Source: Candidatus Gottesmanbacteria bacterium RIFCSPLOWO2_01_FULL_49_10 (GTDB lineage Bacteria > Patescibacteriota > Microgenomatia > UBA10105 > UBA927). From it: a stretch of 48,944 nt of DNA. The stretch lies in contig MFJZ01000058.1 of NCBI GenBank assembly GCA_001781025.1, positions 34,583 through 83,526 on the forward strand, written 5' to 3'. Within the stretch, counting starts at the first letter, position 1, and each line of letters opens with the position of its first letter. This document shows, piece after piece, positions 7,586-31,137 of this stretch. The notes below the pieces were generated by a model. It saw only the letters and a list, made by a program, of their open reading frames with translations, was not told where the DNA came from and did no database searches. A program made the position numbers and the translations under genes.

Positions 7586-8550
7586 GCCCTGACAATAGTA
7601 ATTGTTTAATCACCGGCGGCACAGGCTTCATAGGAAGCCACCTCGTAGAGGAGTTGGTACGACGGAAAAACCGCGTAACTGTCATCGACACAAACTTGCT
7701 CCCCCGTTCGTGGTTTTTACTAAACGGACTGGATAAAAAAACGAACCTTCTGCGCGTCGACGTACGTGACAGACATGCAATTTCCGCAATCATCAAAAAA
7801 CTTGAACCCCTTTATGTGTTCCACTTCGCGGCACGGGCCATCGTCGAAGAAGTCTATCAAAACCCACAAGAAGCCCTGGAAACCAACATTATGGGTACAG
7901 TCAATATACTGGAAGCGGCCAGAGCGTGCCACAACTTGAGATGCGTCCTCGTGACCTCCTCGGATAAAGCGTACGGCAAAAAGGAAGGCAAGTACCGCGA
8001 ATCAGACGCGCTCAAAGGCGATCATCCGTACGAAGTATCCAAATCCGCGGCGGATTTGATTGCGTATTCCTATTATAAGACCTATGGACTTCCCGTCACC
8101 ATTACAAGATTCGGCAATGTATACGGCGAGGGTGATTTACATTTCTCCCGAATTATTCCGGGCATCATGATGGCTCTTGTTACAGATAAAACTCTTGCAA
8201 TACGAAGTAACGGGAAATTCGTCAGAGACTATGTGTATGTAAAGGATATTGTAAACGGGTGCATGCGTTTGGCAGAGGAGGCAGATAAAACCACGGGCGA
8301 TGCATTTAATTTCGGTTCGCACGAAACACTCTCCGTTATAGATCTCATTAAAAAAGTCCAAAAACTCTTAAACAAAAAAATCAAATACGAAATTCTTAAC
8401 TGTACACAAAATGAAATTCCATCACAGTCTCTCGATTTTACGAAAATCACTAGGGTAATCTCATGGAAACCGACATGGTCTTTGGAGAAATCCATTTCTA
8501 ACATTTTTGAGTTCTACAAAAAATTCTATGAAATGTCGAGCCTGCAATAA
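7582..8550 (+). CDS. Extended-SDR NDP-hexose 4,6-dehydratase, probably CDP-glucose 4,6-dehydratase
   Basis: Contains 'ITGGTGFIGSHL', 'VTSSDKAYG' and 'HPYEVSKSAADL' (YxxxK). ATG 7582 overlaps the rfbF TGA (ATGA). The CDP specificity is inferred only from coupling to rfbF. Confidence 0.7.
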   Translation: MSPDNSNCLITGGTGFIGSHLVEELVRRKNRVTVIDTNLLPRSWFLLNGLDKKTNLLRVDVRDRHAISAIIKKLEPLYVFHFAARAIVEEVYQNPQEALETNIMGTVNILEAARACHNLRCVLVTSSDKAYGKKEGKYRESDALKGDHPYEVSKSAADLIAYSYYKTYGLPVTITRFGNVYGEGDLHFSRIIPGIMMALVTDKTLAIRSNGKFVRDYVYVKDIVNGCMRLAEEADKTTGDAFNFGSHETLSVIDLIKKVQKLLNKKIKYEILNCTQNEIPSQSLDFTKITRVISWKPTWSLEKSISNIFEFYKKFYEMSSLQ

Positions 8551-11141: not shown

Positions 11142-11145
11142 AATA

Positions 11146-11154: not shown

Positions 11155-11165
11155 AGCGAAAATTT

Positions 11166-18001: not shown

Positions 18002-18013
18002 AATCTTATACGA

Positions 18014-19177
18014 TCAATGCAATGTTTGTCTTAATGATTTAGCGAAAATCAAATTCCATGAATACTCTCTTCCTAACTTCAGAGATCTATCTCTAAATGA
18101 TCGGAGTTTTTTTTCGTCTAAAAGCAATTTTATTATCCCCTCAGCGATTTTGTGCATGTTGTCTGAAACTGCGATACCTACCCTTCTTTTAACTATCTCT
18201 TTCCATACATCGGGCACTTTAGTGATTATGATGGGCAATCCAACAGCAAGATATGCCTTAACTTTTCCCGGATCCGTATATCGTACAAAATTATCGGGAC
18301 TGTCCACGTATGGAGCAATTGCAGCAGCACATTTTGCTAATAATGCCTCCACCTCATCATGATTTTTTATAAATCCATAAAATGTTACATACTTTTGCAG
18401 ATGTAACTTTTGCACCATATCCAAAAGCTCACTTTCCATTGGTCCCCCGCCAATGATGTCGAAATGAAAGTGCGGAAGCTTTGTTACAATCAACGGAATA
18501 GCTTCTATAACCGACTGTACTCCCTGTTTCTTCGTTAAATGGCCCATATGAGCCAAATGATAACGTTTGATCTTACTAAAAGGCACGGGGTTTGTGATAG
18601 CGTCAGTTCCTACGGGAACGACTATCTGTTTTTTTCTAATTTCCGGATCATTAAGACCCTTTCTTGAACGTTCGAGTTCCATGATTGAAGATAGATTCCA
18701 TAAAGTATCTGCGTTTTTCGCCGCAAAAGCGTCCAGCTTGTGATAGACAGCATTAATGAACGGGTTTGCAAAACGGTGGGGAATATAGTCAATAGTATAA
18801 AAAACAGTTTTTTTTACTAACCCCACCTTTTGGAGCAGTATTCCCATGCATGCATTGATGTTATCCACACCGATAAAAATATCCGTATATCCCAAGCGAA
18901 TACACCACCATAACGTCAACACTGCATCCTTTATGACACTGACAAATTGAAAAGGTACGTGCCAAGGAAAAATAATTTCCTTAACTCGTACGCCGCTGAC
19001 GTCAAAAATGCTCAAATGTGATCGTTTCTCTTTTGCAAAGACAAAGGGATGCGCGATAAATGCAAGGTGCGCAGTTTTTCCCCGTAGATAGGTTGCAAGC
19101 GCATGCGGCGGACCGGTCGCATACTCATGGGTGACAATGACCACACGCAATTGGTGAAGCTTAGCGGTTAAATTCAT
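18014..19177 (-). CDS. GT-B fold glycosyltransferase (GT4-like); paralogue of 4583..5749
   Basis: Contains 'FDIIGGGPMESELLDMV...AIAPY...YTDPGKVKAYLAVGLPIIITKVP'. ATG 19177 (MNLTAKLHQLRVVIVTHEY) was chosen. The longer ORF-track N-terminus lies inside the upstream gene. Confidence 0.75.
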   Translation of the reverse strand: MNLTAKLHQLRVVIVTHEYATGPPHALATYLRGKTAHLAFIAHPFVFAKEKRSHLSIFDVSGVRVKEIIFPWHVPFQFVSVIKDAVLTLWWCIRLGYTDIFIGVDNINACMGILLQKVGLVKKTVFYTIDYIPHRFANPFINAVYHKLDAFAAKNADTLWNLSSIMELERSRKGLNDPEIRKKQIVVPVGTDAITNPVPFSKIKRYHLAHMGHLTKKQGVQSVIEAIPLIVTKLPHFHFDIIGGGPMESELLDMVQKLHLQKYVTFYGFIKNHDEVEALLAKCAAAIAPYVDSPDNFVRYTDPGKVKAYLAVGLPIIITKVPDVWKEIVKRRVGIAVSDNMHKIAEGIIKLLLDEKKLRSFRDRSLKLGREYSWNLIFAKSLRQTLH

Positions 19178-20138
19178 GACGATACCATGCAATGGTTTGA
19201 GATAATCCCTTCTCAAGCCGGGTTGAGGCGGTGAAGTGAAGATGTTTTTGGGCCTTCGTATTGTCACTGTTTCTTCTGGGACTCCCGTCGGGCTTCGTTG
19301 TATCAAATACGATCTTGGGTGATTTTCCGCTCAATCGTACAATAATCTCTACAAGCTCTCTAATGGTCACTTCCTCATCCGTACCAAGGTTCACCGGGTC
19401 CGGCTTCGGATAGCGCTCCACAGCCTGCATCATGCCTTCTGCCAAATCTTCAACATAGAGAAATGCGCGGGTCTGACCTCCGGAGCCCCACACCACCACG
19501 GGATCCTCGCCGTCAAATACCCGTTTGATAAGAGCTGGAATGACATGGGAAGTTTTCGGGTTAAAATGATCACGCGGCCCGTAACAATTGTACGGACGGA
19601 CAATACTCACCTTCATACCATACTCTTCTGCATAATACATCCCTAGTTTTTCCGCCATGCGTTTGGCCCACCCATATCCGCCGTTGGTAGGTTCCGGTTC
19701 ATTCACGAATCCTTCTCCCTCCGCCGTCGGTACGCGGCAGACGCGGGGATACACACACGCGGAAGAAACGACAAGAAATCGTTCTACCTTTGCTAGTCTG
19801 GCTGCTTCTATCATGGTTGTTGCAATCTCCAAGTTGTCCAGAAGCATCGTCGCCTGATGCGTCCGGTTGTACTCAATGCCGCCCACGCGGGCAGCCAAAT
19901 TCATAACCACCTCCTGATCTCTACACGCCTTCAGTGCATCGTTGGGATCTGCGCAGTTGCCTTTGATAAATCTGACGCTATCTTTTAGATAGGCGATATT
20001 TTTGACGTTACCGTTTTGCAGGTTATCCAACACGGAGACGCGGGCTCCCTGCTCCACAAGTTTTTCTACGACGTGACTGCCGATGAACCCGGTACCACCG
20101 GTGACAAGAACATTTTTATCTTTCCAGAAAGTACTCAT
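19161..20138 (-). CDS. Extended-SDR epimerase/reductase, GDP-L-fucose synthase / ColC-like
   Basis: Contains 'VLVTGGTGFIGSH', 'VVSSACVYPR', 'EPEPTNGGYGWAKRMAE' and 'VVVWGSGGQTRAFLYVEDLA'. There is an ATGA overlap (20135-20138) with the ColD-like gene. Confidence 0.75.
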   Translation of the reverse strand: MSTFWKDKNVLVTGGTGFIGSHVVEKLVEQGARVSVLDNLQNGNVKNIAYLKDSVRFIKGNCADPNDALKACRDQEVVMNLAARVGGIEYNRTHQATMLLDNLEIATTMIEAARLAKVERFLVVSSACVYPRVCRVPTAEGEGFVNEPEPTNGGYGWAKRMAEKLGMYYAEEYGMKVSIVRPYNCYGPRDHFNPKTSHVIPALIKRVFDGEDPVVVWGSGGQTRAFLYVEDLAEGMMQAVERYPKPDPVNLGTDEEVTIRELVEIIVRLSGKSPKIVFDTTKPDGSPRRNSDNTKAQKHLHFTASTRLEKGLSQTIAWYRHEFNR

Positions 20139-21316
20139 GTTTGTGTAAATATCTTGATAATCGTTTCCATCTCTTTTTTCGTCAACTCCGGATTATTACC
20201 GAAGTACAACCCTTGCTCATGGATGAGTCTCGCGTTGGAGTTTGCCCATCCGCCGTTCTCTTTCACATACTTATGAAAAAATGGTTGACTCGTCATATCT
20301 CCTCCCACGACCGGACGAATCTCTACTTTCCCGTCGCAGCGTGTAACCAGTTCGTCCCGAATCTTCCCGGAGCGGCATATCACCGGGACTGCGAAATTAG
20401 AAACCACATCAATATGATCGTAGCGGATAGGAAAGTATCGATCAGTCTGTGCATAAATCGGTGCCGCCATACGAAAAAAATTTGTTTGTCTTTTGTCCAC
20501 AATATCTTCAATGTACTGCAATTGATTGTTCCCTAAAAATCCCTGTATCTCTGTCGTTCGAAAGTTATATCCTAAGTCATAAAACGTATAGCGCGAATAA
20601 AATGTTGAATTCACGTTATGTTTGAGCCGTATGATGAGCTGTTTTTGTTCCGTCAAGTTTCTATCCCACCCGTGGGCCCGGACCAACTGAAGCATGGTTT
20701 CTAGCTCTTCGTTATCGGTACACACCGCGCCCCCTTCTACTGTGGACATGTGATGCCCTACATAAAACGAAAACGTGCTTGCAAGCCCCCAGTTCCCGAG
20801 CCTTTTCTTTTTAAAGACCGTTCCTAATGCCTCACAGTTATCCTCTATCAATAATATGTTATATTTTTTGCAGTAATCTGCGATTTGGTCTATATCATCA
20901 CAAAACCCGAGAAGGTTTGTGATAAATAGAGCCTTTATCGGACGGTGTCTGCAAACGTTTTTAAGCGTCCGACTGGAGACGTTCAACGTATCCATCTCAA
21001 CATCCACAGGCACAGGGGTAAGCCCTAATTGAATAAGGGGCATGACGTCTGTGGACCACGTGAGAGCGGAAAAACCTACCGGATCGCCTTTTTTTAGTTT
21101 CCCCAAATTGAGAAGCGCTTGAATGAGCGCGAGATTAGCCGAACTTCCGCTGTTCACGAAAACACAGTGTTTACGCTTTTGATAATGTGCAAAATTTGCC
21201 TCAAATGTCCTACACTGCTGCCCGATACTCAATTTGTCCGCATGGAGAATAAAGTCACAAAGCTTCCGTTTGGTTTCCGCCTCTTTATAAAACGTTGATT
21301 TAATGAGCTTGATCAT
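20135..21316 (-). CDS. PMP-dependent NDP-4-keto-6-deoxyhexose 3-dehydratase, ColD-like
   Basis: Contains 'VNSGSSANLALIQAL', 'LLIEDNCEALG', 'TFSFYVGHHMSTVEGGAV' and 'LVRAHGWDRNL'. A His-His dyad (nt 20750-20755) sits where aminotransferases carry the Schiff-base Lys. No Fe-S cysteine cluster is present. Confidence 0.8.
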   Translation of the reverse strand: MIKLIKSTFYKEAETKRKLCDFILHADKLSIGQQCRTFEANFAHYQKRKHCVFVNSGSSANLALIQALLNLGKLKKGDPVGFSALTWSTDVMPLIQLGLTPVPVDVEMDTLNVSSRTLKNVCRHRPIKALFITNLLGFCDDIDQIADYCKKYNILLIEDNCEALGTVFKKKRLGNWGLASTFSFYVGHHMSTVEGGAVCTDNEELETMLQLVRAHGWDRNLTEQKQLIIRLKHNVNSTFYSRYTFYDLGYNFRTTEIQGFLGNNQLQYIEDIVDKRQTNFFRMAAPIYAQTDRYFPIRYDHIDVVSNFAVPVICRSGKIRDELVTRCDGKVEIRPVVGGDMTSQPFFHKYVKENGGWANSNARLIHEQGLYFGNNPELTKKEMETIIKIFTQT

Positions 21317-21333
21317 AACGATAATGTTGTATT

Positions 21334-22653
21334 CTACGTCTTTTTCGGTAAAAAATCATGTATACTTTCTGCGATAAAATCTATTTCCTCGTTGCCTAGT
21401 CCGGGATATATCCCTACAAAAAACGTATTATGAAGCACTCTGTCTGCATTTGTTAAGTCTCCGACTTTACGATACGGTACGTTGAAGTATGCCGGCTGCC
21501 TGGTGATGTTTCCGGCAAACAGTGGCCGTGTCTGTATCATGCGGCTTTCCAAAAACATCGTGATCTCATGCGTCGTAAACGGAGCCTCATCCCGTATGGT
21601 GAAAGGAAACGCAAACCAACAGGGGTCTGCCTTAGGGAGGGACCTCGGAAGAATAAAATGTTGCTCCCATCTCTTGGCGTGACCGTACATCCGCGCGAAA
21701 TTCTTTCTTCGCGCTTTCATAAATGATGGCATGCGCTTGAGCTGTTCTACTCCCATCGCCGCTTGGGGCTCTATGGGCTTAAGGTTGTAGCCTATCTGAT
21801 TAAACATGTATTTATGATCATAGGGCTTGCCACCCACACGATAGTTGAATCTGGATTTGCACGCACCGTTCATCGTTTTATCATCGCCCCTGCACCAACA
21901 GGACCGCCCCCAATCACGAAGAGATCTCGTGATGCGCTCAAAACGCAAGTCGTTGTAATGCACGGCTCCCCCCTCACCCATAGTCATGTGGTGAGGAGGA
22001 TAAAAAGATTGTGTCGAGAGAATTCCAAAGCTTCCTGTTCTTTGTCCGTCGTATTCGGATCCTAGTGCATCGCAGTTGTCTTCCACGAGCAATAAATTAT
22101 GTTTTTTACAAAACGCGACGACTGCGTCCATCTCGTTAGGATTACCCAGAGTATGGGCAAGCATTACTGCTTTCGTTTTCTTCGATAGAGCACGTTCTAA
22201 ATTGTTGGCATCGATATTGTATGTATCAGGCGTCACATCCAGAAAAACCGGTACGAGTCCATAAAGAACCATCGGGTTTACCGTGGTTGGAAATCCGCAT
22301 GCGGCCGTTATCACTTCATCACCGGGGGTCATATGCCCAGGATAAAAATATGACATGAGGGATGCAATCGCTAAAAGGTTCGAACTGGATCCTGAGTTTG
22401 TCAGAATACTTCCTTTTACACCAACAAAATGAGCCAGACCTAGCTCAAGTTCTTCGGCTTTTCTACCCAATCCGAACCAACCATCAATAAGTGATTCTAT
22501 ACTCGCGTTGATTTCTCTATCATCAAATACGCCACCTGAATATTGAATCCACGTTTTTCCCCGTATAAATTTTTTTTTTGCCTTACGGTCCGAAAAAATC
22601 TTATTTACAGCGCGTTCAATCTCTTTTCGCTTTGATTCTTCTGTTGTGTCCAT
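21334..22653 (-). CDS. rfbH: CDP-4-keto-6-deoxy-D-glucose 3-dehydrase (E1; RfbH/DdhC/AscC type)
   Basis: Resembles Salmonella RfbH over the full length by eye. Motifs include 'LIDGWFGLGR', 'TNSGSSSNLLA', 'GDEVITAACGFPTTVNP', 'LVEDNCDALG', 'SFYPPHHMTMGEGGAV', 'RDWGRSCWC', 'YDHKYMFNQIGYNLKP', 'LFAGNITRQPAY' and 'FFVGIYPGL'. Cys194/252/254/265 resemble the E1 [2Fe-2S] motif. Confidence 0.92.
   Translation of the reverse strand: MDTTEESKRKEIERAVNKIFSDRKAKKKFIRGKTWIQYSGGVFDDREINASIESLIDGWFGLGRKAEELELGLAHFVGVKGSILTNSGSSSNLLAIASLMSYFYPGHMTPGDEVITAACGFPTTVNPMVLYGLVPVFLDVTPDTYNIDANNLERALSKKTKAVMLAHTLGNPNEMDAVVAFCKKHNLLLVEDNCDALGSEYDGQRTGSFGILSTQSFYPPHHMTMGEGGAVHYNDLRFERITRSLRDWGRSCWCRGDDKTMNGACKSRFNYRVGGKPYDHKYMFNQIGYNLKPIEPQAAMGVEQLKRMPSFMKARRKNFARMYGHAKRWEQHFILPRSLPKADPCWFAFPFTIRDEAPFTTHEITMFLESRMIQTRPLFAGNITRQPAYFNVPYRKVGDLTNADRVLHNTFFVGIYPGLGNEEIDFIAESIHDFLPKKT
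22570..22579. repeat. Homopolymer T10 (A10 on the coding strand) in codons 25-28 of rfbH
   Basis: Counted directly. The tract encodes A-K-K-K (gcA AAA AAA AAA). Confidence 0.9.
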
Positions 22654-22665: not shown

Positions 22666-23571
22666 TTATTTATCCTTGTAATACTCTATTGTTTTCAACA
22701 ATCCAGCTTCAAGCGGTGTCTTGGGAACCCAATGCAATATTTTCTTTGCGCGTGTAATATCCATGTTCCAGACATCTGACTCTAAAACCCTGTCTGGAAA
22801 AGCTCCGTAACGGATAGATGATGTACTTTGACATAATTTTACGATCTTTTCAACTACTGACTTGAGCGTATACGATTTACCGCCGCCAATATTCACAATA
22901 GCTGAATTTTTCCTATCGGACCAATCCAAACATGCTAGTAATGCATCAACGACGTCTTCGACGAATATATAGTCTCTCAGTTTTTTTCCTGAATTTAACG
23001 GTATTTCTTTTCCATGAAGCGCTTTCATAATAATACTTGGAATAAACCGCTTTTCAGTTTCTCCGGGACCGTACATGGTGCTAACTCTAAGTATTAGGAC
23101 AGAAAATCCAAAATACTTTCCGTACATACTACATATATGTTCTCCTGCCAGTTTCGTCATGGCATAGGGTGACGGGGGATGGGTCAAGGACGTTTCTTCT
23201 TTATAGGGTATGGATGCGTCTCCATATACTTCTTCTGTGCTAACATAAATAAATAGTTTGGGTGCATGACCACGTGTCGCTTCCAGTAGATTCAGGGTTC
23301 CCAAAATATTTGCATCAATGCATTTCTTTGCTACATCAAAATCCCGCGTCAAATTTACAAGTCCCCCCAAATGAACGATGACGTCCGCCTCTATATCAGC
23401 CACTAATTTTTGCAAACCCGAAAAGACAGTAAGATCCATGGTAGATATGTTACGCGCAGGATTCGCGTGCCGACTAAACAGATGCGTTTGATAATGACGA
23501 AGATCAATCCTACGAGCGAAATGACTCCCCAAAAAACCTGTTGCACCGGTAAGCATGAGATTTTTTTTCAT
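22666..23571 (-). CDS. Extended-SDR NAD(P)-dependent epimerase/reductase; candidate NDP-4-ketohexose reductase
   Basis: Contains 'LTGATGFLGSHF', 'VSTEEVYG' and 'SPYAMTKLAGE' (YxxxK). It sits directly downstream of rfbH. The specific role, for example paratose or abequose synthase-like, is only a guess. Confidence 0.75.
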   Translation of the reverse strand: MKKNLMLTGATGFLGSHFARRIDLRHYQTHLFSRHANPARNISTMDLTVFSGLQKLVADIEADVIVHLGGLVNLTRDFDVAKKCIDANILGTLNLLEATRGHAPKLFIYVSTEEVYGDASIPYKEETSLTHPPSPYAMTKLAGEHICSMYGKYFGFSVLILRVSTMYGPGETEKRFIPSIIMKALHGKEIPLNSGKKLRDYIFVEDVVDALLACLDWSDRKNSAIVNIGGGKSYTLKSVVEKIVKLCQSTSSIRYGAFPDRVLESDVWNMDITRAKKILHWVPKTPLEAGLLKTIEYYKDK

Positions 23572-23572
23572 A

Positions 23573-24574
23573 TTAAAGACGTATTGTACGCTTAATAATG
23601 GCTCTTCCGTAGGAAAGAAGGTATATCCAACAAATCAGCGGATGGACAAACCAGGCGACATCGGCGATATAGAAAAATCCACGTAATGCGTCAAAACATG
23701 GCTTCACCATGGTCATGGTATAAAAAATATAAAGGAGTAACTTCATGTTGCTTTTTGTTGAATGAGGATCATAGATAAGATAACGACGGTTCGTCTCTGA
23801 CGCAAGATAATAATGAGATAAAAATGCGATACGCTTTTTCATAAGCGCAGGAAGACTCACCGCCGTGTCATGAATAACATCATTTTTTACAATCGCAAAT
23901 CTTCTATGTCCACTTTTTATAGCATCGACAAATACATCAATGTGCAAAAAATCTTTTGGAGTACTTTTTGAATACTTAAGAAGTATATCCCTACGATACA
24001 CAACCCCATTACATCCCACTGTCGGCAGAGTGTTCGTATCGAATTCCACTACTGTATATGCCCGTCTGTCCGAAATGATTTTTCCCGATGTCCAACACTT
24101 TTGATACCGAGGAAGCCTATCCGGCCGTCCAATATAGTAAACAATAGGATCGACATTTCCGAATAATCCAACATATCTGTTATAAAGGGAATCGGTTCTC
24201 CGATACCCATAGTACATGGTGCCCGCATGAATAACCATCGGATCCTCCATAAATGGCCGTACCATTTGACGCAGCCACAGCCGTGTTGGCAAATAATTAT
24301 CCGCATCGATCGATACAATGAGGTTATGTGATGCTAACTTGAGGCCAATAGCCCGTTGTGCCTCTGCATTTTTAAGTATTGGACTGGCTATAACACGAAA
24401 ATGGAATTTTTTAAATATTGCAACTGTCTCGTCAATGGATCCACCGTCTATTGCCAAATACTCAATGTTATCTTGCGGATAATCTTGGTCTTTGATGCCC
24501 CGAAGACATTCGCTAAGGGTCCGTTCATTATTTAAACTCACGATAACGATGCTTATGTATGGCAATGCCTTCAT
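23573..24574 (-). CDS. Family-2 glycosyltransferase with a C-terminal membrane segment; paralogue of 1478..2488
   Basis: Contains 'ISIVIVSLNNERTLSECLRGIKDQDYPQDNIEYLAIDGGSIDET...SIDADN' and the C-terminal 'LLLYIFYTMTMVKPCFDALRGFFYIADVAWFVHPLICWIYLLSY'. The start at ATG 24574 gives an N-terminus matching the paralogue. ATG 24583 is the alternative. Confidence 0.8.
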   Translation of the reverse strand: MKALPYISIVIVSLNNERTLSECLRGIKDQDYPQDNIEYLAIDGGSIDETVAIFKKFHFRVIASPILKNAEAQRAIGLKLASHNLIVSIDADNYLPTRLWLRQMVRPFMEDPMVIHAGTMYYGYRRTDSLYNRYVGLFGNVDPIVYYIGRPDRLPRYQKCWTSGKIISDRRAYTVVEFDTNTLPTVGCNGVVYRRDILLKYSKSTPKDFLHIDVFVDAIKSGHRRFAIVKNDVIHDTAVSLPALMKKRIAFLSHYYLASETNRRYLIYDPHSTKSNMKLLLYIFYTMTMVKPCFDALRGFFYIADVAWFVHPLICWIYLLSYGRAIIKRTIRL

Positions 24575-24575
24575 A

Positions 24576-27206
24576 TTAATCATTATTGGGAGGCACAGAA
24601 TATGGAAGATAATCTTCGCTGTATCTGTATGTTGCAAATGGGTCAAGTCGTATGCGGCGTACACGAATAGATACGTTTTTCGGTGTTATGAGCCTAATAT
24701 TTGCCAGTTTTCGCTTGAGAAACTGCCCCTGTGCACTATAATAATCACTCTCGAGTAGCTCAAAACGCATCTCGTGCGGCATACTGTCGGTGAACATCGG
24801 TATATAGAGTGTTGTATCCGCCATAGGCGCAGTATTATCCGGATTAGTAGCCCATATAACCTTCATCCAGCTCGTCGCCATTTGTGACGTTAATAGTGGG
24901 AAGTACCTCTCGGCAACTTTATCCCAAAGCATATACACATCATCATATAACTCGGGTACATGCTGGTAATACCTGGAAATACTTACTGTCTCAGGAAATA
25001 ATGGAACGAACTCGTTGATGATAAGCAATTGCCGGTATGCTGTTTCATCCACCCAAAGTCGAAGGTATCGTCCAACAACTGGTTTCGGGAAAACATCAAT
25101 TTTACTTTTCTCCTCATTGCGTTTTACTCCCACTACCTGCTCCCATGTTTTACCGTCGCGGGACACATCGTAATGATAATCCCGTGGTACTGCGTCAGCT
25201 TGTGAAAGGCTCGCCCAGGCGGCACCGACAAACGTCATCTGACTCCCCATGTCCAATACTATCCATGCCGGACGGCAATCTGACCACCAATAAGATCTGT
25301 TGCTCAAATTAGCATCCAGGGCTAGTTCTTTTCTAAAATCATAAAACGGCTCTCTTTCATCTCCTATGGTTTGACAAACTGAAATACGCACATCTGACAA
25401 AAGTGAGGCTAACTTTGAAGAAAAGGCGGATAATGCCTGGACCTGTTGATCGTCCTTTAAGATTGCTGACGAACTTGCAAGAGAGGGAGACGCCTCGTAC
25501 TCGACAGTAAGATTGTAGCGAAAGTCAACCGGGTAGGTATTGGTGGTATCTACAATTACCGCGCCACCAGTGGCAATGGTAAATGAAAGATCAATAGGTG
25601 TAAGCGCGGACACTATCTCTCTTACACTCTGCGTATGATCCCGTACTCCCCGGTCAACTGAATAATCAATGAAGTGTACATACGGTGCCCATGCTACCTT
25701 CTGGAACAGGGCTTTAAGAAGGTAATACATTTCGGATCGCACCCAGAGAGGAGGAAGTTTTTTGATATTTGGATAATATATTGGGTAGATATACGAAAGT
25801 TCGCCAATAAAATCATTTAACCCGTGGCTCCCCTTGAACGCGAAAAATCTGTCGTCAGATGTAAGCGACGGAAACGTCTTCAAAAATGTCCGGTAAAATA
25901 TGATCGCCGGCAAACTATTCTGGCGATACATTTGTTCTTCAATACCCAGCAAAAGAACGGTGTTCACTGCAATGTAGGTTACGAGCAGTACGATACCAAT
26001 CGTAGGACTCTTTGCCCACTGGAATTTTCGCTGTTTCCTGCTGAATGAAGTAAAAAAATTATAGAAAAAAATACTGAGTCCTGCGGCAAAAAAAGTAAAT
26101 CCTAAATACCTCCAGCGATTCTCGCTCCATCCATATGCAGTTGCCAAAAAGCTGTCTTTCATTGTCCAGGCAAAAGCATAGAAAAGCGTCACCGCAGTAA
26201 AGGAAAAAAAACAAAACCAAATATATATACTATACCGATGTTTCCTCAATCGATACACCGCGTAATAAAATATCGCATAGAGGATCCATCCAACAAACGC
26301 AAAAAAGTACGTTCGGACAAATAAGAATGGTAAAAAACGGAGTACGATATCACGAATAAGATTAAGCATTGGATATGGTATGACATACGGGCCTATGAAA
26401 TAGCCAAATGCCAAAAGCCCCCGCCAAATGTATTCAAAGTAGCGGTGTTCATGAAAAAGAAGGATTCTAAACTGCACGCGTTCATCAATAAAATCATGTC
26501 CTGACCCTCCGTAAGAGGACCGCAATATCAAGTACCCAATACCGATAATCCATACAATAAAATGGCGACGAATAACCTGTGCGAGGATTTGCAGCCATGC
26601 TTTGGGCTTCTTTATAAAAATTTTCTCATAAAACAATGCATCGAATAGAAACAGCAACGCGAGAAATAGAAGCCCGGATTCCCGAATGACAAGAGACAAA
26701 AAAAATGCGATAAGCATAACTACATACCAACCGTTTCGTTTGGATGTCAAATAGATATCAAAAGCCCATAGCCCCGTATAAAAACACAGCGTTTGTACGG
26801 CATAGAGAGACTCAAAGGCTCCCCAGGTAATGACATCATGATGCGCCGTCGTAATGAGAAACAATAATCCGGCGACGAGTCCGACTGTACGGTTGGTTTT
26901 TCGGGAAACAAAAAGGTTAACCACCATTGCAGTCACGATATGAAACACGAGTGCCGTCGCAAACCATCCTACAGGGCGCCAGCCAAAAAGCAGGTTATTC
27001 ATGTATGAAATAAGTCCATGACTTTTCATGAGGCTAATAAGAGAGAAATTACCACCCATGAGGCCCAACCAAGATGTTTCCCAACCGTGATAAAACCAAA
27101 AGGAAAAAATTTTGTGAAACGCTATGAGCGCAAGGAGTCCGAACAGCAACCATTGCCAAACAGCATTATCGCGTACCCGCTGAAAAATGGGGAAAAATAA
27201 TTTCAT
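24576..27206 (-). CDS. Polytopic membrane protein (GT-C-like N-terminal half) fused to an extracytoplasmic region containing a discoidin (F5/8 type C) domain
   Basis: About 430 aa carry many hydrophobic helices, for example 'WQWLLFGLLALIAF', 'VGLVAGLLFLITTAHHD' and 'VVMLIAFFLSLVIRESGLLFLALLFLF'. A soluble C-terminal half follows, containing the discoidin-like segment listed separately. Confidence 0.7.
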   Translation of the reverse strand: MKLFFPIFQRVRDNAVWQWLLFGLLALIAFHKIFSFWFYHGWETSWLGLMGGNFSLISLMKSHGLISYMNNLLFGWRPVGWFATALVFHIVTAMVVNLFVSRKTNRTVGLVAGLLFLITTAHHDVITWGAFESLYAVQTLCFYTGLWAFDIYLTSKRNGWYVVMLIAFFLSLVIRESGLLFLALLFLFDALFYEKIFIKKPKAWLQILAQVIRRHFIVWIIGIGYLILRSSYGGSGHDFIDERVQFRILLFHEHRYFEYIWRGLLAFGYFIGPYVIPYPMLNLIRDIVLRFLPFLFVRTYFFAFVGWILYAIFYYAVYRLRKHRYSIYIWFCFFSFTAVTLFYAFAWTMKDSFLATAYGWSENRWRYLGFTFFAAGLSIFFYNFFTSFSRKQRKFQWAKSPTIGIVLLVTYIAVNTVLLLGIEEQMYRQNSLPAIIFYRTFLKTFPSLTSDDRFFAFKGSHGLNDFIGELSYIYPIYYPNIKKLPPLWVRSEMYYLLKALFQKVAWAPYVHFIDYSVDRGVRDHTQSVREIVSALTPIDLSFTIATGGAVIVDTTNTYPVDFRYNLTVEYEASPSLASSSAILKDDQQVQALSAFSSKLASLLSDVRISVCQTIGDEREPFYDFRKELALDANLSNRSYWWSDCRPAWIVLDMGSQMTFVGAAWASLSQADAVPRDYHYDVSRDGKTWEQVVGVKRNEEKSKIDVFPKPVVGRYLRLWVDETAYRQLLIINEFVPLFPETVSISRYYQHVPELYDDVYMLWDKVAERYFPLLTSQMATSWMKVIWATNPDNTAPMADTTLYIPMFTDSMPHEMRFELLESDYYSAQGQFLKRKLANIRLITPKNVSIRVRRIRLDPFATYRYSEDYLPYSVPPNND
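25008..25307 (-). other. Discoidin / F5-8 type C-like carbohydrate-binding domain within CDS 24576..27206 (aa ~634-733)
   Basis: 'YWWSDCRPAWIVLDMGSQMTFVGAAWASL...YHYDVSRDGKTWEQVV...VVGRYLRLWVDE...LLIINEF' follows the bacterial discoidin consensus (W..., wi.vDLG, y.i.vS.DG..W, aRYvRl, i.Ef). Confidence 0.6.
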
Positions 27207-27944: not shown

Positions 27945-28880
27945 CTATTCCTTACCTAAATAGCGCCTATACCAGGAAATTGTTTGTAGTAATCCTTCTG
28001 AAAGTTGTATGGTGGGTTCCCATCCAAGAATCTTTTTTGCTTTTGTCCAGTTGACGTACTGCTCTGCTATCTCCTGATCTCTTCCTTTCCCGCCTATAGC
28101 TATTTTCGCCTGAACGCCGGACAACCGTATTATGGTAAGCATCAAATCCCGGACAGAAATAACACCCCCGGTTCCAAAATTAAATATACGGTTCTTATCT
28201 AGAGTAGTATCCCCTATTTGAGCAAGCAATATAAATGCATGTATCGCGTCATCGATAAATAGAAAATCTCGTATTGCGCTGCCACCCCAAAGCGAGGGGT
28301 TTTGACCGAATAAAACGGACCGGATAGTTTTCGGTATCAACCGGGAAAAATTCGTGTCGCCGGGCCCATAAATGTTCACAAACCTTGGTATTAAAACCGG
28401 AAGGTGGTAGCTGTCAGCATACGATTGGGCTATAAGGTCTGCACACGTTTTAGATGTTTCATAGGGACGTGAAGGTCTCGGAGAAATATCTTCAGTCGTA
28501 GGGGGCTTTGCATCACCATACACCTGAACAGTGGAGGAAACTACTACACGCGCTACATGGTATATTTTACTTAACTCCAATATATTAAGCGTCCCAAGAA
28601 TATTGTTTTGAAACGTCCTATACGGAGACTCTTTACCCTCCTCAACTAGGGCTTCTCCGGCTAAATGAAAACAGGCAAATAGATTTCGTGGGGAAAAGAG
28701 AACTTCAAGCTTGCGCTTGCTTGCGACATCCGCTGCGATAATACCTTGCCTGTGTACGATTCGTGAGACAGCTACAACAATTGCGCCTTCTTCCCGGAGT
28801 TTCGTCGAAAGGGCAGTTCCTAAAAATCCGCCTGCGCCGGTCACCAATACCTTTTTGCCTTTCCAAAAATGCGATTTCAT
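27945..28880 (-). CDS. Extended-SDR NAD-dependent epimerase/dehydratase
   Basis: Contains 'VLVTGAGGFLGTAL', 'VVSSTVQVYGD' and 'RPYETSKTCADL' (YxxxK). Confidence 0.8.
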   Translation of the reverse strand: MKSHFWKGKKVLVTGAGGFLGTALSTKLREEGAIVVAVSRIVHRQGIIAADVASKRKLEVLFSPRNLFACFHLAGEALVEEGKESPYRTFQNNILGTLNILELSKIYHVARVVVSSTVQVYGDAKPPTTEDISPRPSRPYETSKTCADLIAQSYADSYHLPVLIPRFVNIYGPGDTNFSRLIPKTIRSVLFGQNPSLWGGSAIRDFLFIDDAIHAFILLAQIGDTTLDKNRIFNFGTGGVISVRDLMLTIIRLSGVQAKIAIGGKGRDQEIAEQYVNWTKAKKILGWEPTIQLSEGLLQTISWYRRYLGKE

Positions 28881-30031: not shown

Positions 30032-31057
30032 TTAGGTAAATAGAGCAGCGTTTGAGGTAACCCATTGGTAAAGCCTGGCAATTCCGTTTTTCACCCCCAT
30101 GGTAGGTACCCAACCAAAATCATGTTGTGCTTTTCGGATATCTGATATAAAAACTTTCTGATCTCCTTGCCGCCACTCGTGAAATGACGAAGCTACGGTA
30201 CGACCAAATAGCCCGTTGAGCATCGGACCGAACTCTGACCAAACAGACATCGTATTATTCGACCCTCCACCAATATTATAGATTTCACCGCGAGTTTTCT
30301 CTCCAGCTTGGTATGCTTTGTCAAACGCGCCAATGAGGTCATCCACAAAAAGCAAGTCACGCACCTGTTTACCGTCCCCATAGATAGATAATGGAATCCC
30401 GATCGTTTGGGCGATAATAAACCAAGCGACCCACCCCTGATCTTCCACGCCAAATTGACGGGGGCCATAGATACATGACTGCCGCATGACGACCGTGTCG
30501 AGCCCGTAAATCCTTCCGTAGTCATGTACATACTGATCCGCAGCCCCCTTGCTGCATCCATATGGCGAATGGAAGTCAAGACCCCTGTCCTCACCCACAC
30601 CAAAGGGCAAATTCTTATACGCCCAGCGCGTCTCCTCTTCCACCACTTCAACATCCTCCATACCCCCATATACTTTATTGGTGGAAGAATAAATGAATTT
30701 CGCTTTTGTTTTCGACGCGCGCGCTGCCTCGAGCACATTGAAGGTGCCGCGAGCGTTTATATCAAAATCTTCCCGAGGACTAGCGACTGAAGTAGTCACC
30801 GCGACCTGTGCAGCCAGGTGGAGCAGCAAATCGGCTGATGCTATAGATGTATGTACACCGTCCAGGTCTTTAACATTACAAATGTCACCAATGGTTACGG
30901 ATAATTTTCCACCAAGCGTTTTGAGCCATTCAAGGTTTTTAGCTGCTCCCCTACGGGATAAGTTGTCCAAAATAACGACAGACGCGCCCCTTGACAAGTA
31001 ATACGCAGCTGCATTACTGCCGATAAACCCTGCTCCTCCGGTAATAAAAACATTCAT
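30032..31057 (-). CDS. CDP-paratose 2-epimerase (tyvelose epimerase)-like extended SDR
   Basis: Contains 'MNVFITGGAGFIGSN', 'ILDNLSRRGAAKNLEWLK', 'IYSSTNKVYG', 'LDFHSPYGCSKGAADQYVHDYGRIYGL', 'EDQGWVAWF' and 'GDGKQVRDLLFVDDL'. These track the Salmonella tyvelose epimerase sequence closely by eye. Confidence 0.85.
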   Translation of the reverse strand: MNVFITGGAGFIGSNAAAYYLSRGASVVILDNLSRRGAAKNLEWLKTLGGKLSVTIGDICNVKDLDGVHTSIASADLLLHLAAQVAVTTSVASPREDFDINARGTFNVLEAARASKTKAKFIYSSTNKVYGGMEDVEVVEEETRWAYKNLPFGVGEDRGLDFHSPYGCSKGAADQYVHDYGRIYGLDTVVMRQSCIYGPRQFGVEDQGWVAWFIIAQTIGIPLSIYGDGKQVRDLLFVDDLIGAFDKAYQAGEKTRGEIYNIGGGSNNTMSVWSEFGPMLNGLFGRTVASSFHEWRQGDQKVFISDIRKAQHDFGWVPTMGVKNGIARLYQWVTSNAALFT

Positions 31058-31137
31058 AATGATGATATCTAAAGAATAGCAGAGTATACGGCGCAAATCT
31101 ACCTGATCATTGCAGGATAAAATTTAGGAACGACCCC

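What the first reader, a model, noticed from the sequence alone, without database searches (positions are those of the whole stretch)
19161..22653. Two different PMP-type sugar 3-dehydrases in tandem (Fe-S E1 type and ColD type), with no E3 reductase and no GDP-sugar genes
Gene 21334..22653 tracks Salmonella/Yersinia RfbH/AscC (E1) along its length. It keeps the pattern Cys194-X57-Cys252-X-Cys254-X10-Cys265. As I recall, the E1 [2Fe-2S] motif is C-X57-C-X-C-X7-C.

Gene 20135..21316 looks like ColD instead, with 'SFYVGHHMSTVEGG' and 'RAHGWDRNL'. It has no Cys cluster. Its first His is residue 188 by my count, and from memory the ColD catalytic His is reported as His188.

Both carry a His-His dyad (nt 21988-21993 and 20750-20755). 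At the same position the window's genuine aminotransferase (3309..4451, 'FQGAKLLSIGEGG') has the Schiff-base Lys.

The ColD-like gene is ATGA-coupled to a ColC/GDP-fucose-synthase-like SDR. However, the only nucleotidyltransferase in the window is the CDP-glucose type. There is no GDP-mannose 4,6-dehydratase. No AscD/RfbI-type ferredoxin-reductase (E3) is present to reduce the E1 cluster.

Two mechanistically distinct C3-deoxygenation routes side by side suggest one of two things. The locus may make two different 3,6-dideoxyhexoses. Alternatively, the ColD-type enzyme may have been recruited to a non-GDP substrate.
Basis: partly seen in the sequence, partly recalled or inferred. Interest (0 to 1): 0.75.

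Follow-up and report, generated by a model that had tools for sequence, protein, structure and literature searches.

The report
Two sugar 3-dehydratase types in tandem
In a surface-glycan operon of an uncultured ultra-small (CPR/Patescibacteria) bacterium, an iron-sulfur "E1" sugar-deoxygenating enzyme sits next to an iron-sulfur-free "ColD-like" one; they belong to two separately exchangeable sugar cassettes, and the ColD-like enzyme probably removes the 3-hydroxyl of a CDP-sugar without any reductase, which has not been shown for any enzyme.

Summary
Gene 21334-22653(-) is an RfbH/E1 orthologue: it passes the curated NCBIfam cut-off, is 44% identical to Yersinia E1, and has His221 at the Lys position. 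All four cluster cysteines are present, with the last spacing X10 instead of X7.

Gene 20135-21316(-) is a His-type DegT protein without the Fe-S loop. It carries ColD signature residues but is not a ColD orthologue: it is 34% identical to ColD and 33% to E1, and it falls in a separate large clade found mostly in CPR bacteria.

The window holds no E3, ManC or Gmd. It does hold a glucose-1-phosphate cytidylyltransferase, a CDP-glucose-4,6-dehydratase-like SDR and a CDP-tyvelose-2-epimerase homologue.

In 87 related loci the ColD-like gene nearly always travels with a GDP-fucose-synthase-like SDR. RfbF-like genes occur in 16 of 32 long loci, ManC in none.

The left cassette (GT2, SDR, E1) is swapped for a GT2+SDR cassette in close relatives. 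The tandem is therefore a junction of two modules, not a co-evolving pair.

Most likely the locus makes two different CDP-3,6-dideoxyhexoses, one by the Fe-S route using housekeeping reductants and one by an E3-independent ColD-type route. The nucleotide specificity is inferred, not shown.

The parts
23573..24664 (-). GT2 glycosyltransferase with C-terminal membrane segments; first gene of the left (E1) cassette
   Evidence: Pfam Glycos_transf_2. It is 70-79% identical in the loci that also carry the E1 cassette (L016, L017, L100) but only 35-39% identical in loci with the alternative SDR311 cassette.
22666..23571 (-). Extended SDR (301 aa) and constant upstream partner of E1. Presumed 4-ketoreductase of the E1 product. 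Its T-E-E motif resembles the T-D-E of 4,6-dehydratases, so a dehydratase role is not excluded.
   Evidence: Pfam Epimerase. Best PDB hits are dTDP-glucose 4,6-dehydratases at about 110 bits, with 'stEEvyg' aligned to 'stDEvyg'. 'StEE.YG' is conserved in the seven E1-adjacent homologues. It lies directly upstream of E1 in L016, L017, L025, L100 and L102-L104.
21334..22653 (-). Gene A: E1/RfbH-type PMP-dependent, [2Fe-2S]-type NDP-4-keto-6-deoxyhexose 3-dehydrase
   Evidence: NCBIfam RfbH 559.9 bits, above the 423 cut-off. PDB 3bcx 401.7 bits over the full length. 44% identical to Yersinia E1.
21859..22074 (-). Codons of the four cluster cysteines of gene A: Cys194 (22072-22074), Cys252 (21898-21900), Cys254 (21892-21894), Cys265 (21859-21861). 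Motif C-X57-C-X-C-X10-C.
   Evidence: Positions. They align with Yersinia Cys193, 251, 253 and 261. The X10 spacing is present in 121/121 family members.
21988..21993 (-). His221-His222 of gene A. His221 occupies the Schiff-base Lys position.
20135..21316 (-). Gene B: His-type DegT-fold protein without an Fe-S loop. ColD-type 3-dehydratase-like, member of a large uncharacterised clade found mostly in CPR bacteria.
   Evidence: PDB ColD 186 bits, E1 156 bits. 34% identical to ColD and 33% to E1. More than 120 cluster representatives at 71-86% identity. Forms a separate clade from ColD in the NJ tree. Shares ColD-type signature residues W87, E162, H215, W217, R219, R253. The predicted fold matches ColD best, TM 0.75-0.80.
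20750..20755 (-). His188-His189 of gene B. His188 aligns with ColD catalytic His188. It is preceded by Gly187, where ColD has Ser187.
19161..20138 (-). GDP-fucose-synthase/ColC-like SDR (325 aa). Presumed 5- (or 3,5-) epimerase/4-reductase acting on the gene B product. Its start overlaps the gene B stop (ATGA).
   Evidence: NCBIfam Fcl 214 bits, below the 500 cut-off. 33% identical to E. coli Fcl over the full length, with Cys109 and His179 equivalents (C128, H198) retained. Directly downstream of gene B in 46 related loci. ATGA overlap.
18014..19177 (-). GT4 glycosyltransferase, last gene of the right cassette. Probable start is the ATG at 19177, overlapping the SDR gene by 17 nt.
   Evidence: Pfam Glycos_transf_1. 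Present in 26/32 long gene B loci. Overlap read.
6806..7585 (+). Glucose-1-phosphate cytidylyltransferase (RfbF-like). The only nucleotidyltransferase in the window and the presumed source of CDP-glucose for both dehydratases.
   Evidence: TIGR02623 261.8 bits, below the 300 cut-off. PDB 1tzf 196 bits over the full length; the next hit scores 67 bits.
7567..8550 (+). CDP-glucose 4,6-dehydratase-like SDR (RfbG-like, 'TSSDKAYG')
   Evidence: TIGR02622 is the best model at 204 bits, below the 278 cut-off. PDB hits are mixed between dTDP- and CDP-glucose 4,6-dehydratases.
30032..31096 (-). CDP-tyvelose/paratose 2-epimerase homologue. A further sign that the locus handles CDP-hexoses.
   Evidence: PDB 9rl0 316 bits and 1orr 303 bits; the next hit scores 126 bits.
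27945..28880 (-). GalE-like SDR (311 aa). In most related loci its homologue sits directly upstream of gene B, where SDR301+E1 sit in this window.
   Evidence: PDB 4zrm 130 bits. SDR311-like genes lie upstream of gene B in 14 loci and are present in 15/32 long loci.

Best explanation
The region is the junction of two separately exchangeable deoxysugar cassettes inside one long minus-strand glycan operon of a Patescibacteria (Microgenomates/Gottesmanbacteria-like) genome.

Both cassettes most likely draw on CDP-4-keto-6-deoxy-D-glucose, made by the RfbF-like cytidylyltransferase and the RfbG-like 4,6-dehydratase at 6806-8550.

Left cassette (GT2, SDR301, E1):
- E1 binds PMP and a [2Fe-2S] cluster, forms the C4 ketimine, and His221 triggers loss of the 3-OH.
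- The glucoseen intermediate is reduced by two electrons that arrive through the cluster.
- No dedicated E3 gene was found in the window or the sampled loci, so the electrons would come from a housekeeping ferredoxin or flavodoxin system, as for SpnQ.
- SDR301 then reduces C4, giving a D-series 3,6-dideoxyhexose. The TyvE-like enzyme at 30032-31096 could epimerise it at C2.

Right cassette (gene B, Fcl/ColC-like SDR325, GT4):
- Gene B works like ColD. PLP is converted to PMP by L-glutamate, His188 catalyses the dehydration, and the enamine is hydrolysed to the 3-deoxy-4-keto sugar plus ammonia. No Fe-S cluster or reductase is needed.
- SDR325 epimerises C5 and reduces C4, giving an L-series 3,6-dideoxyhexose of the ascarylose or colitose type.
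- The GT4 transfers this sugar.

What is shown: gene identities, catalytic residues, gene order and its conservation, the cassette exchange, and the absence of E3, ManC and Gmd in the window.

What is inferred: the nucleotide (CDP) for gene B, the electron source for E1, the roles of the SDRs, and the final sugars.
For: Identity and intact catalytic residues:
- E1 identity and cluster/His residues.
- Gene B has His at the Lys position, no Fe-S loop and ColD signature residues.
- Gene B belongs to a strongly conserved family, with mean column identity 79% over 34 members.

Partner enzymes:
- SDR325 keeps the Cys/His epimerase pair of GDP-fucose synthase.
- SDR325-like genes follow gene B directly in 46 loci and occur in 26/32 long loci.

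CDP context:
- RfbF matches 1tzf at 196 bits, and the best model for RfbG is the CDP-glucose 4,6-dehydratase model.
- The TyvE homologue scores 316 bits.
- RfbF-like genes occur in 16/32 and RfbG-like genes in 10/32 long gene B loci. ManC occurs in 0/87 and Gmd in 1/32.
- In L001, L030, L035 and L040, RfbF and RfbG occur with gene B as the only DegT-fold gene within 10 kb.

Modularity:
- Gene B at 82-86% identity is found either with the E1 cassette (window; L100, 83%/83%) or with a GT2'+SDR311 cassette (L019, L101).
- L016 has E1 at 86% identity but gene B at only 69%.
- Each type also occurs alone: gene B in L001, L002 and L030; E1 in L018 and L103.

No E3:
- No Fer2, FAD_binding_6 or NAD_binding_1 gene appears in the Pfam tables of ten related loci or in the scanned window ORFs.
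- SpnQ, which uses general reductases, is the precedent (PMC8987622).
Against: - If both enzymes take the same substrate, one 3-dehydratase would be enough, so the redundancy is unexplained except by cassette history.
- All characterised ColD-type enzymes use GDP-sugars and are 62-67% identical to each other (PMC10440746).
- The partner SDR is of the GDP-fucose-synthase type.
- Two related loci carry GDP-pathway genes: a true Gmd 9 kb from gene B in L085, and a near-true Fcl directly after gene B in L090.
- RfbF and RfbG score below their curated NCBIfam cut-offs. In some loci they sit next to an aminotransferase or C-methyltransferase that could be their real client (L021, L057; window 8507-9739).
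- Only 10 kb of flank was seen per locus, so manC, gmd or an E3 gene could lie elsewhere in these genomes.
- No residue-level test of nucleotide binding was possible.
- E1-type and ColD-type genes co-occur more often than I expected (7/32 long gene B loci; 5 of 7 E1-side contexts), which leaves room for a functional link.
Confidence: 0.5

Rival explanations
1. This is an ordinary colitose-type pathway. Gene B and SDR325 are ColD and ColC equivalents acting on GDP-4-keto-6-deoxy-D-mannose (or another non-CDP sugar), and the manC and gmd genes lie outside the window. The E1 cassette is an unrelated CDP pathway that happens to be adjacent.
For: - ColD is the best PDB and fold match.
- Gene B shares ColD signature residues.
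- Its partner SDR is Fcl/ColC-like with the catalytic Cys/His pair.
- L085 has a true Gmd (535.8 bits, above the 415 cut-off), and L090 has a near-true Fcl directly after a gene B homologue.
- All characterised ColD-type enzymes use GDP-sugars.
Against: - An E. coli-type ManC was found in 0 of 87 loci, and Gmd-like genes in 1 of 32 long loci. RfbF-like genes occur in 16/32.
- In several loci RfbF and RfbG have gene B as the only DegT-fold enzyme nearby.
- Gene B is only 34% identical to ColD and lies outside the ColD clade.
- The Gmd in L085 is paired with a second Gmd-like gene. I read this pair as possibly a self-contained GDP-rhamnose-type pathway, which is my own inference.
Confidence: 0.2
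2. The two proteins are functionally coupled. One option is that gene B acts on the E1 product, for example as a 4-aminotransferase-like enzyme on the 3-deoxy-4-keto sugar. Another is that gene B stands in for the missing E3 by recycling the cofactor (PLP to PMP with glutamate). A third is that they work as a complex.
For: - The genes are 17 nt apart in one operon.
- No E3 gene is present.
- The tandem is conserved in L016, L017, L069 and L100.
- E1-type and ColD-type genes co-occur within 10 kb in 5 of 7 E1-side contexts, even with a different ColD-type clade in L102 and L104.
Against: - Each type occurs alone in many loci. About 78% of long gene B loci have no E1-like gene, and E1 is alone in L018 and L103.
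- Discordant identities show that the two genes are exchanged independently.
- Gene B keeps Gly187-His188, not the Asn-Lys pair. The PDB holds a ColD H188K/S187N double mutant (3gr9); from my own memory, this double change is what converts ColD into an aminotransferase.
- Gene B's constant partner is the Fcl-like SDR, not E1.
Confidence: 0.12
3. One copy is redundant or decaying. For example, E1 may be inactive without E3 and is simply carried along with its cassette, so only the ColD-type route operates.
For: - No E3 gene appears in any sampled locus.
- If both act on the same substrate they do the same chemistry, so one would be redundant.
Against: - All four cluster cysteines with identical spacing occur in 121/121 family members, and the FYPxHH motif occurs in 118 of 121 members (the window's gene A plus 120 homologues).
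- Family members are 64-99% identical, full length and free of frameshifts.
- The E1+SDR301 pair is conserved in many loci.
Confidence: 0.08

Closest known systems
E1 / RfbH / AscC / DdhC (CDP-6-deoxy-L-threo-D-glycero-4-hexulose 3-dehydrase) of Yersinia and Salmonella
   Same: Gene A has the same length and fold and passes the curated RfbH model. His replaces the Schiff-base Lys. The four cluster cysteines align, with the C-X57-C-X-C part identical. It sits in a locus with CDP-glucose genes and a TyvE homologue.
   Different: The last cysteine spacing is X10 rather than X7, and the Yersinia extra Cys257 is absent; this variant is fixed in 121/121 relatives. No E3 (AscD/RfbI) gene lies in the window or in ten Pfam-annotated related loci. 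Identity to Yersinia E1 is only 44%.
ColD (GDP-4-keto-6-deoxy-D-mannose 3-dehydratase, E. coli O55 / Yersinia) and the C. jejuni GDP-heptose C3-dehydratases
   Same: Gene B has the same fold and the catalytic His at the same position. It lacks the Fe-S loop and shares W87, E162, the RAHGWxR motif and R253. It is followed by an Fcl/ColC-like epimerase-reductase.
   Different: Gene B is 34% identical to ColD, whereas characterised members are 62-67% identical to each other (PMC10440746). It forms a separate clade: the 150 best-scoring of 1.84 billion cluster representatives all score 190 bits or more against gene B, above the 186 bits ColD scores against gene B in the PDB search. It has Gly187 instead of Ser187. 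Its neighbourhood holds RfbF and RfbG rather than ManC and Gmd.
SpnQ (TDP-4-keto-2,6-dideoxy-D-glucose 3-dehydrase of spinosyn biosynthesis)
   Same: SpnQ is an Fe-S-containing, His-type 3-dehydrase with no dedicated E3. It is served by general ferredoxin or flavodoxin reductase pairs (PMC8987622). I propose the same situation for gene A.
   Different: SpnQ acts on a 2,6-dideoxy TDP-sugar in a secondary-metabolite cluster. No 2,3-dehydratase or dTDP-glucose genes were seen here. I made no sequence comparison with SpnQ.
Sugar aminotransferases of the DegT/DnrJ/EryC1/StrS family (e.g. PseC, perosamine synthase; window gene 3309-4451)
   Same: They share the fold, the PLP-binding Asp, and the SGS and EGG motifs.
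   Different: Both gene A and gene B have His where aminotransferases have the Schiff-base Lys.

Membership tests
E1/RfbH (Fe-S, PMP-dependent CDP-sugar 3-dehydrase), tested on gene A | Full-length similarity to characterised E1, passing a curated family model | tested here: met
   NCBIfam NF011936 RfbH 559.9 bits against a 423 cut-off. 3bcx 401.7 bits, residues 5-434 versus 3-432.
E1/RfbH, tested on gene A | His replaces the Schiff-base Lys (Yersinia His220) | tested here: met
   His221 aligns with His220. The H220K entry 3bb8 has K at that position. The Lys of the window aminotransferase falls in the same column.
E1/RfbH, tested on gene A | Four-cysteine [2Fe-2S] motif C-X57-C-X1-C-X7-C | tested here: met
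   Cys194, 252, 254 and 265 align with Cys193, 251, 253 and 261. The last spacing is X10, not X7, in 121/121 relatives. Cluster binding itself was not tested.
E1/RfbH, tested on gene A | Dedicated E3 reductase (AscD/RfbI: Fer2 + FNR-like domains) encoded with it | tested here: not met
   None among the scanned window ORFs. None in the Pfam tables of ten related loci. The motif scan of the window and the 98 related loci then held (L001-L098) was negative, but I ran no positive control. The rest of the genome was not visible.
E1/RfbH, tested on gene A | Substrate is CDP-4-keto-6-deoxy-D-glucose | not testable with these tools
   Context only: RfbF-like, RfbG-like and TyvE-like genes lie in the window.
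ColD (GDP-4-keto-6-deoxy-D-mannose 3-dehydratase), tested on gene B | DegT fold with catalytic His188 and no Fe-S loop | tested here: met
   Foldseek top hits are ColD, TM 0.75-0.80.
ColD, tested on gene B | Membership of the clade of characterised enzymes (62-67% mutual identity) | tested here: not met
   34% identical to ColD and 33% to E1. ColD groups with P0329, P0326 and P0369, away from gene B, in the NJ tree. The top 150 cluster representatives all score higher against gene B than ColD does.
ColD, tested on gene B | GDP-mannose pathway context (ManC, Gmd) | tested here: not met
   None in the window. ManC 0/87 and Gmd 1/32 in related loci. The exceptions are L085 and L090.
ColD, tested on gene B | ColC/GDP-fucose-synthase-type epimerase-reductase partner | tested here: met
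   ATGA-coupled SDR325 is 33% identical to E. coli Fcl and retains the Cys/His pair. It is a conserved neighbour in 46 loci.
ColD, tested on gene B | PLP/L-glutamate-driven turnover without a reductase | not testable with these tools
   Inferred from the missing Fe-S loop and shared signature residues only.
SpnQ-type (Fe-S 3-dehydrase served by general reductases), tested on gene A | Fe-S motif present and no dedicated E3 | tested here: met
   See the E1 rows above. The precedent is described in PMC8987622.
SpnQ-type, tested on gene A | TDP-2,6-dideoxy substrate context (2,3-dehydratase and dTDP-glucose genes) and sequence clade | not tested
   No SpnQ sequence was available for comparison. 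No Nudix-type 2,3-dehydratase turned up in the Pfam scans.
DegT-family sugar aminotransferase, tested on genes A and B | Schiff-base Lys | tested here: not met
   Both have His. All 115 full-length representatives nearest to gene B also have His.

The most novel reading that the evidence does not exclude
The gene B clade may be a widespread way to deoxygenate C3 of CDP-4-keto-6-deoxy-D-glucose without Fe-S or E3, by ColD-style chemistry driven by glutamate. The clade has hundreds of clusters, mostly in CPR bacteria. If so, the classical E1/E3 radical system is not required for CDP-3,6-dideoxyhexoses. This window and its relatives carry both solutions in one operon, fed from the same precursor, which offers a natural side-by-side comparison of the two mechanisms.
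Probability: 0.4. Interest if true: 0.65.

Novelty: new variant of a known kind. Interest (0 to 1): 0.5.

Why it matters
The review PMC8987622 describes three substrate classes for C3-deoxygenation of nucleotide sugars: E1 plus E3 for CDP-sugars, ColD for GDP-sugars, and SpnQ for dTDP-sugars.

A ColD-type enzyme working on CDP-sugars would break the link between nucleotide type and mechanism. It would give a one-enzyme, oxygen-tolerant, reductase-free route to CDP-3,6-dideoxyhexoses. That would be useful for chemoenzymatic synthesis, because CDP-paratose and CDP-tyvelose have been hard to make (PMC7851689).

It would also reopen the question of why E1 uses an Fe-S cluster at all. The operon supplies both enzyme types with a shared precursor, so the comparison can be tested directly.

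The locus further shows that ultra-small CPR bacteria keep large, cassette-like glycan loci in which sugar modules are swapped. In that respect they resemble O-antigen loci, which bears on how these episymbionts vary their surfaces.

Tried and rejected
- **Residue-level test of nucleotide specificity.** The ColD and E1 structure papers and the SpnQ paper (PMC2242600, PMC2533848, PMC2782820, PMC2515268) are not held. I could not list GDP- or CDP-contact residues and dropped this test.
- **Literature on related enzymes.** Searches for a CDP-linked ColD-type enzyme, for PDB entry 9wvy, and for CPR dideoxyhexose pathways found nothing.
- **Genome-contig scan.** The single-protein scan returned only two close loci, L004 and L005. 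Both are labelled Gammaproteobacteria but have CPR-like gene content. The metagenome scan with an alignment was far more productive.
- **Second metal or cluster site in gene B.** Only Cys161 (equivalent to E1 Cys193, and general to the fold) and Cys149 are broadly conserved. I rejected the idea.
- **SDR311 or SDR301 as the 4,6-dehydratase for gene B.** The window's SDR311 has 'STVQ' at the catalytic acid/base site and is GalE-like, so it is unlikely. SDR301 has T-E-E, so the question is left open.
- **Structure prediction.** The gene B model has mean pLDDT 81.6 but is below 50 in the His loop (186-192) and in parts of 218-252. It supports only the fold assignment.
- **E3 motif scan.** The [2Fe-2S] ferredoxin motif scan was negative everywhere, but I ran no positive control. 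I rely mainly on the Pfam tables.
- **Heteromer hypothesis.** This could not be tested with single-chain prediction.

Full report
**1. Observation**

The window is a dense glycan-biosynthesis locus. Named close homologues of its genes come from Patescibacteria (Candidatus Gottesmanbacteria, Microgenomates group, Woesebacteria).

On the minus strand a tightly packed run reads as follows:
- GT2, 23573-24664
- SDR of 301 aa, 22666-23571
- gene A, 21334-22653
- gene B, 20135-21316
- SDR of 325 aa, 19161-20138
- GT4, 18014-19177

Gene A and gene B are separated by 17 nt. The gene B stop overlaps the SDR325 start as ATGA. The probable GT4 start overlaps the SDR325 end by 17 nt.

*Gene A.* It passes the curated NCBIfam RfbH model, 559.9 bits against a 423 cut-off. 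It aligns end to end with Yersinia E1 (3bcx, 401.7 bits) at 44% identity. It has Cys194, 252, 254 and 265 and His221-His222 at nt 21988-21993. In the HMMER alignment these fall on Yersinia Cys193, 251, 253, 261 and His220.

*Gene B.* It matches ColD best in the PDB (186 bits), then E1 (156 bits). It has His188-His189 at nt 20750-20755. His188 aligns with the residue mutated in the H188N and H188K ColD entries. Gene B has gaps where E1 has its Cys-X-Cys...Cys loop.

*Lys position.* In the same alignment the Lys of the window's true aminotransferase (3309-4451, minus strand) occupies the His-His column.

**2. What is absent**

Pfam and NCBIfam scans of the ORFs up to 42233 give glycosyltransferases, SDRs, methyltransferases, a B12-radical-SAM protein, a formyltransferase, a split transketolase and large membrane proteins. 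The ORFs from 42211 to 48923 were judged from their translations only.

There is no Fer2/FNR-type reductase (E3), no GDP-mannose 4,6-dehydratase and no mannose-1-phosphate guanylyltransferase.

The only nucleotidyltransferase, 6806-7585, matches Salmonella glucose-1-phosphate cytidylyltransferase 1tzf at 196 bits. The next PDB hit scores 67 bits. It scores 262 bits against TIGR02623, below the 300 cut-off.

The next gene, 7567-8550, matches the CDP-glucose 4,6-dehydratase model best (204 bits, below the 278 cut-off). It reads 'TSSDKAYG' where dTDP-glucose dehydratases read 'STDEVYG'.

The SDR at 30032-31096 is a clear CDP-tyvelose 2-epimerase homologue: 9rl0 316 bits and 1orr 303 bits, with the next hit at 126 bits.

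The locus is thus built around CDP-hexoses.

**3. What gene B is**

Gene B is 34% identical to ColD, 33% to Yersinia E1 and 30% to gene A. By overall similarity it is nearly equidistant from the two known types.

It belongs to a strongly conserved family. More than 120 cluster representatives share 71-86% identity with it, almost all unnamed or from Patescibacteria. A 34-member alignment has 79% mean column identity.

I ran a full HMMER scan of 1.84 billion cluster representatives. It gave 670 hits at E<=1e-30, and the best 150 all score at least 190 bits. That is more than the 186 bits ColD scores against gene B in the PDB search.

All 115 full-length representatives have His at the Lys position and lack the Fe-S loop. 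In a neighbour-joining tree, ColD groups with its own relatives (P0329, P0326, P0369 and others, 48-54% identical to ColD), away from the gene B clade. The E1 clade is separate again.

Gene B shares with ColD, and with this whole loop-less radiation, the residues W87, E162, H215-G-W217-x-R219 and N251-x-R253. At W87, E162, H215 and R253, E1 and gene A have different residues; N251 is conserved in E1 as well, and gene A matches gene B at W217 and R219.

A predicted structure (mean pLDDT 81.6, but low in the His loop and in parts of 218-252) matches ColD first (TM 0.75-0.80) and E1 next (TM 0.74).

Characterised ColD-type enzymes, including the C. jejuni GDP-heptose C3-dehydratases, are 62-67% identical to each other and all use GDP-sugars (PMC10440746).

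My conclusion is that gene B is ColD-like in type, and probably in mechanism, but it is not a ColD orthologue. It represents an uncharacterised clade.

**4. Neighbourhoods of the gene B family**

I mapped the window's proteins, plus E. coli Gmd, Fcl and ManC, onto 87 loci that carry a gene B homologue of at least 60% identity. Thirty-two of these loci are 15 kb or longer.

| Feature | Count |
|---|---|
| SDR325-like gene directly downstream of gene B | 46 loci |
| SDR325-like gene present | 26/32 long loci |
| GT4 (18014-type) present | 26/32 |
| RfbF-like gene (54-70% identical) present | 16/32 |
| RfbG-like gene present | 10/32 |
| E. coli-type ManC | 0/87 |
| Gmd-like gene | 1/32 |

The commonest layout is: GT2', SDR311-like, gene B, SDR325-like, TyvE-like SDR, GT4, then RfbF and RfbG a few kb away (examples: L019, L030, L035, L040, L057).

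In L001, L030, L035 and L040, RfbF and RfbG occur with gene B as the only DegT-fold gene within 10 kb.

SDR325 is 33% identical to E. coli GDP-fucose synthase over its full length and keeps the Cys109/His179 epimerase pair.

There are two exceptions. L085 has a true Gmd (535.8 bits, above the 415 cut-off) 9 kb from gene B. L090 has a near-true Fcl (478.6 bits against a 500 cut-off) directly after gene B.

The neighbourhood evidence therefore leans towards a CDP-glucose-derived substrate for gene B but does not settle it.

**5. The tandem is a cassette junction**

The exact block GT2, SDR301, E1, gene B, SDR325, GT4 recurs in L016, L017 and L100. It recurs in part in L069. In L025 the two dehydratase genes are 5 kb apart.

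Identities are discordant between the two halves:
- L016 has E1 at 86% but gene B at 69%.
- L019 and L101 have gene B at 86% and 82%, but carry a different GT2 (35-37%) plus an SDR311-like gene where this window has GT2+SDR301+E1.
- L100 has both genes at 83%.

The left cassette is thus exchanged independently of gene B. Each half carries its own glycosyltransferase.

Both types also occur alone: gene B in most loci, and E1 in L018 and L103.

Even so, E1-type and ColD-type genes lie within 10 kb of each other fairly often:
- 7/32 long gene B loci also have an E1-like gene.
- L102 and L104 pair an E1 (66-74% identical to gene A) with a different ColD-type clade. That protein is 35% identical to gene B and 39-40% to ColD. 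It sits next to an Fcl-like SDR and a split transketolase.

**6. E1 without E3**

All 121 family members (the window's gene A plus 120 homologues) have C-X-C-X10-C. Ninety-five of them show the X57 spacing by my pattern, and 118 have FYPxHH. The cluster site is therefore under selection.

No Fer2, FAD_binding_6 or NAD_binding_1 gene appears in the Pfam tables of ten related loci. A ferredoxin-motif scan of the window and the 98 related loci then held (L001-L098) was also negative, though I ran no positive control.

The known precedent is SpnQ, an Fe-S 3-dehydrase served by general ferredoxin or flavodoxin reductase pairs (PMC8987622). Whether these CPR genomes encode such pairs, or an E3 elsewhere, could not be examined.

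**7. Most likely mechanism (confidence 0.5)**

RfbF and RfbG make CDP-4-keto-6-deoxy-D-glucose.

The left cassette deoxygenates C3 by the E1 route: PMP ketimine, His221-triggered loss of the 3-OH, then two-electron reduction through the [2Fe-2S] cluster from a housekeeping donor. SDR301 finishes the sugar, and the TyvE-like enzyme could epimerise it at C2. The GT2 transfers it.

The right cassette deoxygenates C3 by the ColD route: glutamate-driven PLP/PMP cycling, His188, hydrolysis of the enamine, and no reductase. The Fcl/ColC-like SDR325 epimerises and reduces the product to an L-series 3,6-dideoxyhexose. The GT4 transfers it.

Gene identities, catalytic residues, gene order and cassette exchange are shown. 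Substrates, the electron donor and the products are inferred.

Rival explanations:
- An ordinary GDP-linked colitose-type pathway with manC and gmd elsewhere in the genome (0.2).
- Functional coupling of the two proteins (0.12).
- One redundant or inactive copy (0.08).

**8. Comparison and novelty**

Gene A is a new member of the E1/RfbH family, with a lineage-specific X10 cluster spacing and a SpnQ-like lack of E3.

Gene B is a new variant of the ColD type. It has the same fold, the same catalytic His and the same signature residues. It differs in clade and in neighbourhood, and probably in nucleotide.

The review of nucleotide-sugar dehydratases lists three substrate classes only: E1-CDP, ColD-GDP and SpnQ-dTDP (PMC8987622). 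I found no report of a ColD-type enzyme in a CDP pathway, nor of these CPR loci.

Overall this is a solid, moderately interesting finding. The tandem itself is explained by modular locus architecture. The ColD-like clade is a testable candidate for an E3-independent route to CDP-3,6-dideoxyhexoses.

Noticed in passing
window 1-1571 (-): A split transketolase. The N-terminal half is at 651-1571 (NCBIfam transketolase 240 bits). A C-terminal half begins in 1-650 and runs off the window start. Homologous split transketolases sit next to E1-like or ColD-like genes in L007, L008, L019, L038, L054, L102 and L104. This suggests ThDP-dependent two-carbon branching of a 4-keto-3,6-dideoxy sugar (yersiniose-like).
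   Followed up: partly
window 6806-12626 (+): The gene order RfbF, RfbG, NDP-hexose C-methyltransferase (Methyltransf_13/14), RmlC-like 3,5-epimerase, RmlD-like 4-reductase, B12-binding radical SAM enzyme points to a further CDP-linked, C-methylated 6-deoxy-L-hexose branch from the same precursor.
   Followed up: partly
window 2497-4451 (-): A LegC/PseC-like aminotransferase with the normal Lys (3309-4451) lies next to a sugar N-formyltransferase (2497-3303). Together they probably make a 4-formamido-4,6-dideoxyhexose branch.
   Followed up: no
window 1478-2488 (-) and 23573-24664 (-): Two paralogous GT2 proteins with similar C-terminal membrane segments, each next to a sugar cassette. The window also holds many large polytopic membrane proteins (37805-48923; weak YfhO or PIG-V-type hits, and PMT_2 or PTPS_related in related loci). 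This looks like sugar transfer to a lipid carrier followed by glycosylation outside the cytoplasm.
   Followed up: no
L019 4310-5203, L101 9081-9986 versus window 22666-24664: Alternative cassettes occupy the same position upstream of gene B. Some loci have GT2'+SDR311-like; others have GT2+SDR301+E1. Gene B itself is 82-86% identical across both types. This is O-antigen-like cassette swapping in CPR glycan loci.
   Followed up: yes
L102 16172-18278; L104 16111-18219: A second clade of His-type dehydratases without an Fe-S loop (35% identical to gene B, 39-40% to ColD; 'WGHHMT'). It is followed by an SDR 44-45% identical to E. coli Fcl and preceded by a split transketolase, in loci that also carry an E1 homologue.
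   Followed up: partly
L004, L005: Both contigs are labelled 'uncultured Gammaproteobacteria/Pseudomonadales' MAGs. They carry gene B homologues at 63-69% identity, and L004 has gene content and order typical of the CPR loci (PTPS_related membrane protein, the same GT and SDR order). This may be mis-binning or horizontal transfer.
   Followed up: no
L001 19181-20176: A 331-aa protein with 4Fe-4S ferredoxin domains (Fer4_7, LdpA_C) lies directly after the RfbF-RfbG pair in a locus that has gene B but no E1. Its role is unknown.
   Followed up: no
L030 19237-20022; L035 ~19228: A second, divergent RfbF-like nucleotidyltransferase (36-38% identical to the window's RfbF; TIGR02623 228 bits) directly follows RfbG. 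It may activate a different hexose.
   Followed up: no
window 14000-18000 versus 18000-22000: G+C falls to 0.33-0.36 over the 1144-aa membrane-protein gene (14567-18001) and rises to 0.45-0.47 over the sugar cassettes. This could reflect membrane-protein composition or different origins.
   Followed up: no
window 24576-27206 (-): An 876-aa membrane protein with an F5/8 type C (discoidin, carbohydrate-binding) domain lies immediately upstream of the cassette operon. An 812-aa protein with the same domain lies downstream of the cassette block in L016 and L017.
   Followed up: no
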